DNA of 25,621 nucleotides. Origin: an uncultured Methylomarinum sp. (GTDB lineage Bacteria > Pseudomonadota > Gammaproteobacteria > Methylococcales > Methylomonadaceae). The stretch covers positions 1 through 25,621 of the forward strand of contig CAZDMC010000001.1 in NCBI GenBank assembly GCA_964506335.1, in the 5' to 3' direction. The notes beneath the pieces were generated by a model. The model worked only from the letters and a program-made list of their open reading frames with translations, made no database searches and was not told the origin of the DNA. Made by a program: the position numbers and the translations under genes. Position 1 is the stretch's first letter. Each line of letters starts with the position of its first letter. Below are positions 11,902 through 25,556 of the stretch, piece by piece.

Positions 11902-12043
11902 GTAACTACTCAGTGTAATCTGTAATTGCTCAGATTGCCCTTAATTTTGTTCAAGAGCAAGGCGAAAGCGCACAGTTTACAAGTGTAAATGAGCACTTTC
12001 AATGCAGCTATTGGACAAAATCAAGGGTAAACTAAATAGTTAC
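11902..12043. mobile_element. 142-bp MITE, GTAAC-type ends, 8-bp target duplication
   Basis: Ends GTAACTACTCAG / CTAAATAGTTAC (10/12). Direct repeat AATTTAAG at 11894-11901 and 12044-12051. Inner arms GCCCTTAATTTTGTTCAA / TTGGACAAAATCAAGGGT (15/18). Central TTTAC-AAGT-GTAAA hairpin. Second left-end-like copy at 11922. Confidence 0.88.
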
Positions 12044-12046
12044 AAT

Positions 12047-13177
12047 TTAAGTAGGTAAAAATTTTCTATGCGTATGGATTGACATTAAAATACCGAAGCC
12101 TGCCATTAAAGTCACCATGGATGTTCCACCATAGCTTATTAGAGGCAATGGCACACCAACTACAGGTAATATTCCAATCACCATGCTTATATTAACAAAG
12201 ACATAAACAAAAAAGGTCAAAGTCAAACTACCCGCCAATAATCGACTATAAGTATCTTGCGCCTGCACTGCAATATATAGGCAGCGACTGATAATTAGCA
12301 AATACAGTATTAACAGACCCAGACAACCCGATAAGCCAAACTCTTCAGCAAAAACTGCAAAAATAAAATCGGTAGAACTTTCCGGTAAAAAATCCAGATT
12401 TGCCTGAGTACTGCCTAACCAGCCTTTGCCGTGAACACCACCTGAGCCAATCGCTATTTTGGATTGGATAATATGATAGCCATTACCCATCGGGTCAGCT
12501 TCTGGATTTAAAAATGTTAATACTCTGGCTCTCTGGTATTCCCGCATAAAATGCCACAGTACGGGTGTCAATGAAGTCAGCACAACACTAGTTGCAGCCA
12601 TAAAGCGCCACGACAACCCGGCAAAAAACAACACAGCGGCACCTGAACTTGCTACCAGCAAAGACGTCCCCAAATCAGGCTGTTTTGCGATTAATAAAGT
12701 GGGAATAATAATCATTAAGCCAGCCAATAGCAACTGCTTAGGCTTAGGAGGTAAAGAATATCCCGATAAAAACCAGGCAATCATCATCGGTGTGGTGATT
12801 TTTATCATTTCTGATGGTTGAAAACGGAAAAAACCCAAATCCAGCCATCGTTGAGCGCCTTTTCCAACCTGACCTACTAGCAAAACAGCAACCAGTAATA
12901 ACACCCCGAAAATATAGAGCATAGCAGAGTGTCTATAGAATTGGCGCGGATTAATATGGGCGAGGATGATCATCAATATAAAAGCAACACCAATACGCAT
13001 CGCTTGCCGCATTAATATAGCCATATTCTGCCCACTGGCACTGTATAGAATCAAAAGACTTAATGAACACGCTAAAAATAAACCAATAAACAATGGAATG
13101 TCTATATGCAATTTCCTTAAAATGGTGCCAATAATGGATGGCGAATGAAATTGTTCTCCTTTAGTTTCAGTTTGCAA
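12047..13177 (-). CDS. rodA: Rod shape-determining peptidoglycan glycosyltransferase RodA
   Basis: SEDS motifs GAQRWL, FQPSE, QPDLGT, GYHIIQSKIAIGSGG, TDFIFAV, LPLISYGG. Confidence 0.97.
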   Translation of the reverse strand: MQTETKGEQFHSPSIIGTILRKLHIDIPLFIGLFLACSLSLLILYSASGQNMAILMRQAMRIGVAFILMIILAHINPRQFYRHSAMLYIFGVLLLVAVLLVGQVGKGAQRWLDLGFFRFQPSEMIKITTPMMIAWFLSGYSLPPKPKQLLLAGLMIIIPTLLIAKQPDLGTSLLVASSGAAVLFFAGLSWRFMAATSVVLTSLTPVLWHFMREYQRARVLTFLNPEADPMGNGYHIIQSKIAIGSGGVHGKGWLGSTQANLDFLPESSTDFIFAVFAEEFGLSGCLGLLILYLLIISRCLYIAVQAQDTYSRLLAGSLTLTFFVYVFVNISMVIGILPVVGVPLPLISYGGTSMVTLMAGFGILMSIHTHRKFLPT

Positions 13178-15041
13178 TGACTACCTCTTCCCCTGCCTCA
13201 ACAACAGCCGCAGGCATCAAATATTGTTTTATTATTTCTCCTGCTATCGGCGCTGCAACTGAACCGCCATGCCCACCATTTTCAACAATAACAGCTACCG
13301 CTATTTGTGGATCTTCTGCCGGTGCAAAGCCCATAAATAAAGCATGATCCTTTAACTTATCATCCAGCTCTTCCTCATTATATTCTTCTTCCTGTTTCAC
13401 TGTAAAAACTTGAGCCGTTCCCGTTTTACCGGCTATTTTATAGTCTATTCCTTCCCGTAGCTTTCTTGCTGTGCCTCGTTTTCCATGAACCACATTAATC
13501 ATCGCAGAAACAATATTTCGAATATTTTTTTTCTGCAGGCTGATTTGCTGTTCAGCTGTTGGTATCGCGGCAGTCGTATAATTGGAATTTATTATTCTGG
13601 CAGCCAGATACGGCATCACCACCTTCCCTTGATTAGCCAATGTTGCCGTTGCTCTAGCTAATTGTAGTGCTGTCACCTGAGTAAAGCCCTGCCCAATACC
13701 GGTGATTAAGGTCTCGCCAGGATACCAGGGTTGATTTCTGTTTTTTCTTTTCCATGCTCTGGAAGGTGATAATCCGGCCTTTTCTCCCACCAGATCTATC
13801 CCTGTTTTTTCACCAAAACCAAATTGTTGCAAAAATGCATGAATCCGGTCAATACCCAAGGTTCTGGCTAAATCATAAAAATAGACATCACAGGATTGAG
13901 TGATCGCGTCATTCAAATCGACTAAACCATGCCCCCATTTTTTCCAGTCTCTGTATTTATGTTTCAATTTTGGTAACTGATAAAACCCGGGGCAAAAAAG
14001 TTTATGGTGAAAATTAGTCACATTATATTCTAGCCCTGCCAAGCCTATAAAAGGCTTAATAGTTGAGCCAGGTGGGTATTGACCCCGTAATGCACGATTG
14101 AATAGGGGCTGATCCGGTGATTGCTGAAGAGCATTATAAGCTTTACTACTAATACCATAAACAAAGGGATTGGGATCAAATCCCGGTCGACTGATAAAAA
14201 CCAGTACCTCGCCTGTCTTAACGTCTATAGCAACAACAGCACCCTTTTTTTCCTGTAATGCTTCATAAGCCGTTTTTTGTAGATCAATATCCAGAGTCAA
14301 ATAAATACTGGCTCCTGGCACAGGTTCATCAGAAGCCAAGGTTTTCACAGTTCGCCCCTGTGCATTGGTTTCTATTTCCGAATACCCGGTTTGACCATGC
14401 AACTGAGATTCGTATGTTTTTTCAATACCCACCTTTCCAATATGGTGCGTACCTCGATATTGTGAAACAGGCAGGCTTTTTAATTCTTTTTCATTAATTC
14501 GACCGACATAACCCACCACATGGGCTGTTAAAAAACCATAAGGATAATGTCGAACTAGTCGAGCATGAACATCTACTCCGGGGAAATACGGCCTTACCAC
14601 CGAAAACTTAGCCACTTCCTCATCGCTTAAACGCAATAATAAAGGAATACTGGCAAAGCGTTTTTCTCTTTTTTTCTGCTTCAAAAATTGTTCGATTTTT
14701 TCTTCTGGAATATTGAGTAAATCTTGTAATCGAAACAACGTATCATCCAGGTCTTTAATCTGTTCAGGAATGAGTTCCAGGCTATAGGAAGGCGTGTTTT
14801 CAGCTAAAACCCGACCCCGTCTGTCATAAATAATTCCTCGCGTTGGAGCTAATGGTAGGCTCTTAATCCGATTGGATTTAGCCATTGTTGAATAATGTTG
14901 ATGCCCGGTGATTTGTAAATAAATCAATCTTGCAACCAGGCTAATCATCAACAATATGATAAAAACAAAGACAGCAACGACCCGACTTAAAAAAATTCGA
15001 TTCTCTGCAAAAGGGTCTTTAATGGCGTATATCAGAGCCAT
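13167..15041 (-). CDS. mrdA: Penicillin-binding protein 2
   Basis: N-terminal TM, RGIIYDR, SxxK (STIK), SxD (SCD) typical of PBP2, KTGTAQ; between mreD and rodA. Confidence 0.96.
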   Translation of the reverse strand: MALIYAIKDPFAENRIFLSRVVAVFVFIILLMISLVARLIYLQITGHQHYSTMAKSNRIKSLPLAPTRGIIYDRRGRVLAENTPSYSLELIPEQIKDLDDTLFRLQDLLNIPEEKIEQFLKQKKREKRFASIPLLLRLSDEEVAKFSVVRPYFPGVDVHARLVRHYPYGFLTAHVVGYVGRINEKELKSLPVSQYRGTHHIGKVGIEKTYESQLHGQTGYSEIETNAQGRTVKTLASDEPVPGASIYLTLDIDLQKTAYEALQEKKGAVVAIDVKTGEVLVFISRPGFDPNPFVYGISSKAYNALQQSPDQPLFNRALRGQYPPGSTIKPFIGLAGLEYNVTNFHHKLFCPGFYQLPKLKHKYRDWKKWGHGLVDLNDAITQSCDVYFYDLARTLGIDRIHAFLQQFGFGEKTGIDLVGEKAGLSPSRAWKRKNRNQPWYPGETLITGIGQGFTQVTALQLARATATLANQGKVVMPYLAARIINSNYTTAAIPTAEQQISLQKKNIRNIVSAMINVVHGKRGTARKLREGIDYKIAGKTGTAQVFTVKQEEEYNEEELDDKLKDHALFMGFAPAEDPQIAVAVIVENGGHGGSVAAPIAGEIIKQYLMPAAVVEAGEEVVIAN

Positions 15042-24652: not shown

Positions 24653-24711
24653 AAATCCTCTACAAAACTTTTAAACTTAAATTGCTATTTACTTAGCGCC
24701 TTACGCAAATT

Positions 24712-25353
24712 TTAAGTATTTAAAACAGCCAGTACTTTTACAGTGATATCATTGACAGAACCAACACCTTCAATTGAATTAAACCTGGCATTTTGCTCAC
24801 TGGCTGAATAATAAGCAACTAATGGTTTGGTCTGCTCATGATAGACCGCTAAACGCTTTTTAACGGTTTCTTCTGTATCATCATCCCTTTGAATGAGGGC
24901 TTCGCCTGAAACATCATCAACACCTTCCTTTTTAGGTTTATTAAACTCAATATGATAGCTTCGCCCTGACGCTGGGTGGACTCTCCTTCCACTCATCCGC
25001 TTGATAATTTCACCATCATCAACGGCTATTTCTATCACCTCATCAATATCTACTCCCATTATTCTCAGACCTTCTGCCTGTGCAATGGTTCGCGGAAAAC
25101 CATCAAGTAAAAACCCCTTGCTACAATCATCCTGAGTTATTCTTTCTTTAATCAGATTCAAAATAATTTCATCAGAAACCAGGCCTCCTTCATCCATTAC
25201 TTTTTTAGCTTCAGTCCCTAATGGAGTGCCTGCTTTTACTGCAGCCCTCAACATATCGCCTGTTGAGATTTGAGGTATTTCAAATTTCTCAACTATAAAT
25301 TGAGCTTGAGTTCCTTTTCCTGAACCCGGACTACCTAACAAGATAATACGCAT
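24712..25353 (-). CDS. adk: Adenylate kinase
   Basis: [32 protein letters not shown], Gram-negative [20 protein letters not shown]. Start at ATG 25353 with GGAG upstream. Confidence 0.97.
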
Positions 25354-25403
25354 ATAAATTTTACTCCACAATTTGGCAATATCCTGCCTATATAACAAAA
25401 TTT

Positions 25404-25556
25404 GTAACTACTCACCGAAATTCAGCTAAGGGTGTAGGGTATTGATTTATCAGGCTTCTGAAACAGGACGTTTCAGAGAGCTTACAAGAATGTATTTACG
25501 CGTCCTGATAAGTCAATACCCTACACCCTTTGCGCCAATAAACACTGAGTAGTTAC
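25404..25556. mobile_element. 153-bp MITE, GTAAC-type ends, 7-bp flanking direct repeat
   Basis: Perfect 11-bp TIR GTAACTACTCA / TGAGTAGTTAC. AAAATTT at 25397-25403 and 25557-25563. 27-bp inner IR 25428-25454 / 25504-25530 (26/27). Inner TCTGAAAC/GTTTCAGA hairpin at 25457-25477. Confidence 0.9.

What the first reader, a model, noticed from the sequence alone, without database searches (positions are those of the whole stretch)
11902..25556. One terminus type, different cargo: GTAAC-ended MITEs probably mobilised by an IS66-like transposase
Seen: two full elements (142 and 153 bp) share GTAACTAYTYA ends and 8-/7-bp direct repeats, but their long inner arms are unrelated. Such ends occur in five intergenic regions of this window and I found none in a CDS. 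Established: IS66-family ends start with GTAA and make 8-bp duplications. Inference: a high-copy non-autonomous family whose ends shuttle interchangeable hairpin modules. No transposase is in the window, and the 7-bp repeat at 25404 departs from the IS66 rule.
Basis: partly seen in the sequence, partly recalled or inferred. Interest (0 to 1): 0.65.

Follow-up and report, generated by a model that had tools for sequence, protein, structure and literature searches.

The report
MITEs with ISBst12 (IS66-family) ends
Two ~150-bp hairpin repeats and three end-fragments in this vent methanotroph DNA are non-coding hitch-hiker transposons whose 12-bp ends exactly match those of ISBst12-type (IS66-family) insertion sequences; this is an ordinary kind of element, although the end type turns out to be shared across many bacterial phyla.

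Summary
GTAACTAYTYA occurs 7 times exactly (0.06 expected), only in five intergenic regions. It bounds two full elements: 11902-12043 (8-bp duplication AATTTAAG) and 25404-25556 (7-bp AAAATTT).

The ends are those of the single-ORF ISBst12 group of the IS66 family.
- Published ISDge4 has GTAACTGCTCAGCA ends and an 8-bp repeat.
- The IS66-like element on Geobacillus pHTA426 has GTAACTATTCAGCCC ends and 8-bp GACGAGTT.
- 78 of 136 genomic loci encoding ISBst12-like transposases carry such ends 1.4-2.3 kb apart; 41 have perfect 8-bp duplications.

Short elements with the same ends occur in at least 120 loci of many phyla, with 63 unrelated interior types and mostly 8-bp duplications.

In the source metagenomes the two interiors are roughly 50-80x and 10-25x deeper than their flanks. 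One related strain lacks element 2, and 27 related Methylococcales loci are almost free of these ends.

A complete ISBst12-type IS with the same ends lies in the same sequencing run, but its host is unassigned.

Some inner hairpin cores also occur inside repeats with other ends, and in E. coli.

Verdict: new members of a known kind. Interest is modest.

The parts
1..53 (-). Terminal part of a GTAAC-ended element that runs off the left edge of the window. The end GTAACTATTCA is at 43-53 on the minus strand. The interior at 1-29 is identical to 5053-5081 of another repeat.
   Evidence: (inverted repeat I1)
10436..10481 (+). 46-bp mini-relic. The left end is GTAACTATTCAC; the right end is degenerate (GGAATAGATGCC). 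It has no duplication and is single-copy in the source runs. The site differs between related strains.
11894..11901 (.). Left copy of the 8-bp target duplication AATTTAAG of element 1
11902..12043 (.). MITE 1 (142 bp), a member of the gamma/zeta-proteobacterial 'type 1' subfamily. Outer end at 11902-11913. Second, inner end-like copy GTAATTGCTCAGAT at 11922-11935. Central motif AG-TTTAC-AAGT-GTAAA-TGAG at 11974-11993. Right end at 12032-12043.
   Evidence: interior depth 230-280 against 3-6 in the flanks
12044..12051 (.). Right copy of the duplication AATTTAAG. It contains the rodA stop codon (TAA on the minus strand, 12047-12049).
16427..16464 (+). 38-bp mini-relic between mreC and mreB. The left end is GTAACTATTCAC; the right end is degenerate (GTATAGATAC). 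It has no duplication.
25397..25403 (.). Left copy of the 7-bp repeat AAAATTT of element 2 (8 bp, CAAAATTT, if the C at 25396 is included)
25404..25556 (.). MITE 2 (153 bp) upstream of adk. Ends are GTAACTACTCAC / GTAACTACTCAG. It has 30-bp inner arms at 25425-25454 and 25504-25533 and a conserved core at about 25445-25500.
   Evidence: (I2); a related strain in run X7 lacks it (joint 25399->25558)
25557..25563 (.). Right copy of the repeat AAAATTT of element 2

Best explanation

Proposed mechanism. A single-ORF ISBst12-type DDE transposase (DUF6444 + zf-IS66 + DDE_Tnp_IS66), encoded elsewhere, binds the two 12-14-bp ends. It moves the element in trans and integrates it with an 8-bp staggered cut. 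That cut gives the 8-bp duplication, preferentially in AT-rich intergenic DNA.

What is shown: the anatomy; the identity of the ends to those of transposase-carrying elements; the 8-bp rule; the multi-copy state; an empty site in a relative.

What is inferred: that the transposase acts in trans on these copies, and that it resides in this genome.

The interiors are not needed for this mechanism and differ freely between subfamilies. In the window's lineage the family has expanded. Element 1 landed exactly on the rodA stop codon, inside the rodA-mltB junction. Element 2 landed just upstream of adk.
For: (a) Ends. There are 7 exact ends against 0.06 expected, with 8-bp and 7-bp flanking repeats.

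(b) Cognate IS.
- ISDge4 (ISBst12 group) has ends GTGACTACTCAGCA / GTAACTGCTCAGCA and an 8-bp repeat, and was seen to transpose (PMC12898284).
- The pHTA426 element is 1635 bp, with ends GTATCTATTCAGCCC / GTAACTATTCAGCCC and repeat GACGAGTT. Its ORF matches DDE_Tnp_IS66 at 1.9e-64.
- 55 of 80 and 23 of 56 genomic loci with ISBst12-like transposases have such ends 1.3-2.3 kb apart, and 33 + 8 have perfect 8-bp repeats.
- An ISKpn15-like element has GTAAGTATTCACC ends and repeat TCGTGATA.

(c) Short elements elsewhere. My own estimate of the chance expectation is a few hits. Position 12 was not specified in the pattern, yet it is G in 91% of ends. 57 of 121 elements have a perfect 8-bp repeat.

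(d) Copy number. In runs X1/X3/X5 the interior of element 1 has depth 130-284 against 2.5-6 in the flanks, and contigs break at 11902 and 12043 with many different flanks. Element 2 has 29-68 against 2.4-3.8.

(e) Mobility. A contig of run X7 joins 25399 to 25558, which is an empty site. Methylococcales relatives have 5-25 nt between rodA and the next gene; the window has 18 nt once element 1 is removed. Only 1 end occurs in 211 kb of 27 related loci, against 7 in the 25.6-kb window.

(f) Same run. A complete 1547-bp ISBst12-type IS with GTAACTACTCAGCC ends and a 480-aa transposase lies in the same run, at depth 8.4 against about 3.3 for the window genome.
Against: No transposase is in the window.

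The full IS found in the same run has 53% G+C against 39% for the window, although its 115-nt flank has 40%. It has no close relative in reference genomes (best 50% identity), so its host is unassigned.

Similarity between IS copies and the MITEs is limited to about 12-20 bp. The MITEs are therefore not simple deletion derivatives of the IS copies seen.

Three of the five sites are degenerate relics without duplications. Element 2 has a 7-bp repeat, not 8.

The depth ratios come from metagenome contigs, and other organisms may contribute to them.
Confidence: 0.85

Rival explanations
1. They are ISBst12-type MITEs, but fossils. The burst is over, no cognate transposase remains in this genome, and the copies are now inherited vertically and decay.
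For: Three of the five sites are degenerate relics without duplications. The right end of element 1 deviates (GTAACTATTTA). The only full IS found cannot be assigned to this organism and has a different G+C. The copies laid on element 1 are mostly 90-95% alike rather than 99% or more.
Against: Both full elements keep intact ends and flanking repeats. A strain about 93% identical lacks element 2, so that insertion postdates a shallow split. An intact ISBst12-type IS sits in the same run at similar depth, with a flank of 40% G+C.
Confidence: 0.3
2. The real unit is the inner hairpin core. It would be an independent, conserved structured repeat of the ERIC/REP kind, acting as RNA or single-stranded DNA. 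The GTAAC ends would be only one of several vehicles, or incidental neighbours created by nested insertion.
For: - The 29-mer at 1-29, inside a GTAAC-ended element, is identical to 5053-5081, inside a repeat with different ends (AGAACCTGYTCAAGATC).
- The same core occurs in a GTAAC-framed element of L092, unframed in E. coli (81% over 72 nt, all 5426 genomes), and in a third frame in L020.
- A loose end in run X5 puts the core of element 2 next to the other end type.
- Cores are deeper than arms and ends in the runs.
- The central 5-bp stem covaries while the flanking GAG/TGA stays fixed.
- In L073 the core is flipped within its frame.
Against: Most GTAAC-ended elements in other genomes carry quite different interiors: 63 clusters, 46 of them singletons. 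The duplications flank the GTAAC ends, not the cores. No Rfam family matches the GTAAC elements themselves. The higher core depth can equally reflect slower divergence of the centre. No transcript or protein partner is known.
Confidence: 0.12
3. The elements are moved by a different transposase family that also makes 8-bp duplications (ISL3, IS1595, IS6, IS256, hAT-like), or by the three-gene tnpABC type of IS66.
For: An 8-bp duplication alone is not specific. 'GTAA' also begins the ends of the tnpABC type of IS66 (established knowledge of the family).
Against: The full 12-bp end GTAACTAYTCAG is found at both ends of 78 single-ORF elements encoding DDE_Tnp_IS66 proteins. To my knowledge the ends of the other 8-bp families start with GG, and those of tnpABC IS66 read GTAAGCG. 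Neither was tested here.
Confidence: 0.03

Closest known systems
ISBst12 group of the IS66 family (e.g. ISBst12, ISDge4, ISKpn15, the IS66-like element on Geobacillus pHTA426)
   Same: The terminal inverted repeat is the same (GTAACTAYTCAG, with a variant ending ...TCAC). The duplication is 8 bp and the targets are AT-rich.
   Different: The window elements are 142-153 bp with no ORF, whereas the IS copies are 1.4-2.1 kb with one 450-490-aa DDE transposase. Similarity does not extend beyond about 12-20 bp.
Prokaryotic MITEs tied to an IS by shared ends (Nezha/ISNpu3 in Anabaena; Chunjie in Geobacter; Correia; RUP)
   Same: Size 100-250 bp, terminal inverted repeats, fixed-length duplication, stable hairpin, intergenic location, empty and filled sites. 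Like Chunjie, one copy sits inside an operon junction.
   Different: This is a different family. Nezha has a 10-bp repeat (CATTATCTAC) and Chunjie a 9-bp repeat with 21-bp ends. Here the repeat is 8 bp and the ends are those of IS66/ISBst12.
ERIC/IRU-type intergenic hairpin repeats of enterobacteria, and Rfam sX9 (RF02228)
   Same: The inner cores share the layout ...GAG - 5-bp stem - short loop - stem - TGA.... The neighbouring repeat at 4966-5117 scores 43 bits on sX9 (gathering score 44). It matches E. coli intergenic copies at 81% identity.
   Different: The resemblance concerns interiors only. The likeness to ERIC is recalled from memory and was not tested. The GTAAC-ended elements themselves match no Rfam family.

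Membership tests
MITE (non-autonomous element with terminal inverted repeats) | Short (under about 300 bp), without coding capacity | tested here: met
   The elements are 142 and 153 bp. No ORF is listed within them.
MITE (non-autonomous element with terminal inverted repeats) | Terminal inverted repeats and a flanking direct repeat of fixed length | tested here: met
   The ends are GTAACTAYTYA. The flanking repeats are 8 bp (element 1) and 7 bp (element 2). Elsewhere 57 of 121 elements have a perfect 8-bp repeat.
MITE (non-autonomous element with terminal inverted repeats) | Many copies in the genome | tested here: met
   The interior-to-flank depth ratio is about 50-80 for element 1 and about 10-25 for element 2 in runs X1/X3/X5. 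Contigs break at the element ends with many different flanks. This is metagenome data, so the ratios are upper estimates.
MITE (non-autonomous element with terminal inverted repeats) | Empty and filled sites in related genomes | tested here: met
   A contig of run X7 joins 25399 to 25558. The rodA-mltB junction is compact in 22 Methylococcales relatives. Only 1 end occurs in 211 kb of related loci.
IS66 family, ISBst12 group (as the source of the ends) | Ends begin with GTAA; duplication of 8-9 bp | tested here: met
   Both ends of both elements begin with GTAAC. Element 1 has 8 bp. Element 2 has 7 bp, or 8 with an ambiguous C.
IS66 family, ISBst12 group (as the source of the ends) | The same terminal sequence bounds elements that encode a single DDE_Tnp_IS66 transposase | tested here: met
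   pHTA426 element; 55 of 80 and 23 of 56 loci; ISKpn15-like element; ISDge4 (PMC12898284).
IS66 family, ISBst12 group (as the source of the ends) | Cognate transposase present in the same genome | tested here: inconclusive
   A complete IS with GTAACTACTCAGCC ends lies in the same run (L282). Its host is unassigned: 53% G+C, and no close relative in reference genomes.
IS66 family, ISBst12 group (as the source of the ends) | Transposase binds these ends and moves the short element in trans | not testable with these tools
   This needs a transposition or binding assay.
IS66 proper (tnpA-tnpB-tnpC type) | Ends of the GTAAGCG type, 2-3 kb, three ORFs | not tested
   From knowledge of the family only. 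The window ends read GTAACTA, and all matching IS copies seen were single-ORF elements of 1.4-2.1 kb.
Integron attC site (considered because of the wide phyletic spread) | Core sites RYYYAAC ... GTTRRRY, no target duplication, arrays next to cassettes | tested here: not met
   The ends read GTAACTA...TAGTTAC followed by A, so GTTACAA breaks GTTRRRY at position 5. The elements are flanked by 8-bp duplications and are scattered singly.

The most novel reading that the evidence does not exclude
The inner hairpin cores would be conserved, independently spreading modules. One example is ...GGTGCTCGAAATCCTCA-stem-loop-stem-CTCCGGTTTCTGCGCTCC...; another is the 'GAG-stem-TGA' centre of the type-1 elements. 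They would ride on at least three different kinds of MITE ends across Proteobacteria. They would also persist unframed in E. coli and as the Xanthomonas sRNA sX9. That would imply a selected RNA or single-stranded-DNA function rather than junk cargo.
Probability: 0.15. Interest if true: 0.6.

Novelty: new member of a known kind. Interest (0 to 1): 0.35.

Why it matters
For this genome it explains five odd intergenic features. It marks the lineage as one with a recent MITE burst, which also explains why its assemblies fragment. It flags two insertions that could affect expression: a -56 kcal/mol hairpin between rodA and mltB, and an element just upstream of adk.

More generally, it gives a simple and very specific signature (GTAACTAYTCAG ... 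CTGARTAGTTAC plus an 8-bp repeat). This signature finds ISBst12-type MITEs in Proteobacteria, Chloroflexota, Bacillota, Bacteroidota, Cyanobacteria, Planctomycetota and others. I found no description of such a family in the searchable literature. That is useful for annotation and for studying how one conserved transposase-binding end acquires many unrelated interiors.

Tried and rejected
- Exact-protein look-ups of four window proteins found no source contig.
- A search for a transposase next to the short elements in 120 loci found no recurrent transposase family.
- The only 1.5-kb pair of ends (L100 164-1714) proved to be two short elements bracketing a terB-like gene, not an IS.
- A literature search by the end sequences gave only chance hits.
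- Nezha and Chunjie were considered as the same family and rejected, because their repeats are 10 and 9 bp. The Cardinium MITE is IS982-derived.
- The integron attC reading was rejected (core sites not met, duplications present).
- Rfam has no family for the GTAAC-ended elements. The only weak hit on element 1 is mir-5014 at E 0.35.
- Promoter and terminator scans of both elements were not above shuffles.
There is no close relative in reference genomes. The flanking 38-aa fragment is an AbiEii-type toxin piece with unnamed relatives only.
- The comparison of gamma-proteobacterial IS ends with the MITE sub-terminal sequence found only about 20 bp of likeness.
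Full report
**What the window is.** The 25.6-kb window carries core gammaproteobacterial genes: rfbABCD-like genes, smc, zipA, queF, mltB, rodA, mrdA, mreDCB, gatCAB, fimV, asd and adk. Its G+C is about 39%. RodA is 74-80% identical to Methylobacter, Methylomonas, Methylicorpusculum and Crenothrix. Near-identical DNA is held by small 'hydrothermal vent metagenome' runs. The source is therefore a vent Methylococcales lineage. It is not present as such in the reference genome collection.

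**The observation.**
- GTAACTAYTYA occurs 7 times exactly, against 0.06 expected. All seven lie in five intergenic regions.
- Element 1 (11902-12043, 142 bp) is flanked by AATTTAAG on both sides.
- Element 2 (25404-25556, 153 bp) is flanked by AAAATTT. Because the left flank reads CAAAATTT and the element ends in C, loss of one C from an 8-bp duplication explains the 7 bp equally well.
- The interiors are unrelated. Both fold into very stable hairpins, z -9.0 and -10.6.
- The end at 43-53 belongs to an element cut by the window edge.
- 10436-10481 and 16427-16464 are 46- and 38-bp relics with one good end, one degenerate end and no duplication.
- Similar 27-47-bp 'two ends only' relics exist in other genomes (L055, L069, L109).

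**What carries such ends.**
By my own estimate chance would give only a few. The loci come from Gamma- and Zetaproteobacteria, Desulfobacterota, Chloroflexota, Lachnospiraceae, Bacteroidota, Cyanobacteria, Planctomycetota and others.
- Base 12 was not part of the pattern, yet it is G in 91% of ends. 57 of 121 elements have a perfect 8-bp flanking repeat, and none of these extends to 9. A further 19 have one mismatch, and three show 7 bp.
- No transposase lies beside these short elements.
- The literature gave the link. ISDge4 of Deinococcus geothermalis is an ISBst12-group member of the IS66 family that was seen to transpose. It has ends GTGACTACTCAGCA / GTAACTGCTCAGCA and an 8-bp repeat (PMC12898284).
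- I checked this directly on Geobacillus plasmid pHTA426. The IS66-like transposase gene there matches DDE_Tnp_IS66 (1.9e-64), zf-IS66 and DUF6444. It lies in a 1635-bp element with ends GTATCTATTCAGCCC / GTAACTATTCAGCCC and repeat GACGAGTT.
- Of 80 genomic loci encoding relatives of this protein, from bacteria and archaea, 55 have GTAACTRYTCAG-type ends 1.3-2.3 kb apart, and 33 have perfect 8-bp repeats. A second set gave 23 of 56, with 8 perfect.
- A proteobacterial subgroup (Acidithiobacillus, an ISKpn15-like element) ends in ...TTCAC, as do the window's relics and one end of element 2.
- The ends are therefore those of the single-ORF ISBst12 group.

**Copy number and mobility in the source.**
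- In the runs that hold the window, unique flanks have word depth 2.5-6. The interior of element 1 sums to 130-284. Contigs stop exactly at 11902 and 12043 and continue into many different flanks.
- Element 2 gives 29-68 against 2.4-3.8.
- These ratios (about 50-80 and 10-25) are upper estimates, since other community members may contribute.
- A contig of run X7, about 93% identical to the window, joins 25399 to 25558. A related strain therefore lacks element 2.
- Element 1 sits on the rodA stop codon, which lies inside the duplicated 8-mer. Without the element, rodA and mltB would be 18 nt apart, like the 5-25 nt seen in Methylococcales relatives.
- In 211 kb of the same region from 27 other Methylococcales there is one such end, against seven in the 25.6-kb window. 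The expansion is lineage-specific.
- The smc-queF spacer that holds the relic at 10436 differs structurally between related strains, one of which keeps only ...GTAGTTAC.

**Is the transposase there?**
- It is not in the window.
- Contigs of all four runs match the most conserved stretches of a vent-MAG ISBst12-type transposase gene.
- One of them was recovered (L282, 1663 bp). It is a complete 1547-bp IS with ends GTAACTACTCAGCC and a 480-aa DUF6444 + DDE_Tnp_IS66 protein. Its depth is 8.4, where the window genome has about 3.3.
- Its G+C is 53%, but the 115-nt flank has 40%.
- It has no close relative in reference genomes, and the flank encodes only an AbiEii-type fragment.
- Presence in the same sample is shown. 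Presence in the same genome is not.

**Interiors.**
- Among 124 short elements the interiors fall into 63 clusters, 46 of them singletons.
- Element 1 belongs to the largest cluster, 21 members from Gamma- and Zetaproteobacteria.
- That subfamily has an asymmetric frame: an outer end, an 8-20-nt spacer and a second end-like copy (GTAACTGYTCAGAT). A long hairpin then runs to the right end. It has 46 predicted pairs, 25 of them with compensatory changes.
- The sequence of its centre is conserved: AAGGCGAAAAATG.GAG-TTTAC-loop-GTAAA-TGA.CATTTTTCAACGC. In one member the centre is flipped within the frame (L073).
- Some cores are not confined to GTAAC frames. The 29-mer at 1-29 equals 5053-5081 inside a neighbouring repeat with ends AGAACCTGYTCAAGATC.
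- That neighbouring repeat scores 43 bits on Rfam sX9, whose gathering score is 44. It matches intergenic copies in all 5426 E. coli genomes at about 81% over 72 nt, with a covarying central stem.
- A related core sits in a third frame in a Burkholderiales MAG.
It does not separate nesting, recombination between hairpin arms and independent spread.

**Comparison and verdict.**
- The elements meet every testable criterion of MITEs, and their ends meet those of the ISBst12 group. Trans-mobilisation and co-residence of the transposase remain inferred.
- Nezha and Chunjie are different families, with 10- and 9-bp repeats.
- I found no paper describing ISBst12-type MITEs. The kind of element is nevertheless well known.
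- The finding is real and correctly interpreted, and of modest interest. The cross-phylum spread of one 12-bp end with dozens of interiors, and the shared cores, are the parts worth a follow-up.

Noticed in passing
window 4966-5117: A second kind of MITE with ends AGAACCTGYTCAAGATC (flanking TTA or CTTAG) and a 96-bp inner hairpin. Rfam sX9 (Xanthomonas sRNA) matches 5038-5112 at 43 bits (gathering score 44). The stretch 5004-5075 matches intergenic copies in every E. coli genome at about 81%, e.g. between qseE and qseG, with a covarying 5-bp central stem.
   Followed up: partly
window 1-29 and 5053-5081: A perfect 29-nt inverted match links the interior of the GTAAC-ended element at the left edge to the interior of the repeat with different ends.
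   Followed up: partly
window 10344-10497 (smc-queF spacer): Related strains in run X7 have different structures here. One lacks the 46-bp relic: 81 nt are replaced by 27 others. Another keeps only ...TCGTAGTTAC directly before the queF start and has 253 extra letters upstream.
   Followed up: partly
window 25445-25483: In run X7 the core of element 2 reaches a summed depth of about 36,000. Its own ends reach about 250 and the flanks about 8-57. This short hairpin (CTTCTGAAAC-AGGAC-GTTTCAGAG) must therefore occur in far more contexts or organisms than the element itself.
   Followed up: no
window 21448-21653 (inside the fimV-like gene, minus strand): Three tandem 66-bp repeats (80-88% alike) lie in the acidic C-terminal half of the 893-aa FimV-like protein.
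   Followed up: no
L073 5359-5511 versus L036 3242-3393: The inner hairpin of a type-1 element is in the opposite orientation relative to the asymmetric outer frame. This suggests inversion between the hairpin arms.
   Followed up: no
L100 164-1714: A truncated and a full type-1 element, in inverted orientation, bracket a terB-like gene. The layout resembles a composite transposon, but flanking repeats were not checked.
   Followed up: no
L055 755-781, L069 2441-2480, L109 5256-5302: Mini-elements of 27-47 bp made of little more than two GTAAC ends, without clear duplications. They resemble the window's relics at 10436 and 16427 and could be deletion products or footprints.
   Followed up: no
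L282 1549-1663: The ISBst12-type IS from the source run abuts a fragment of an AbiEii-type toxin gene (PF08843).
   Followed up: partly
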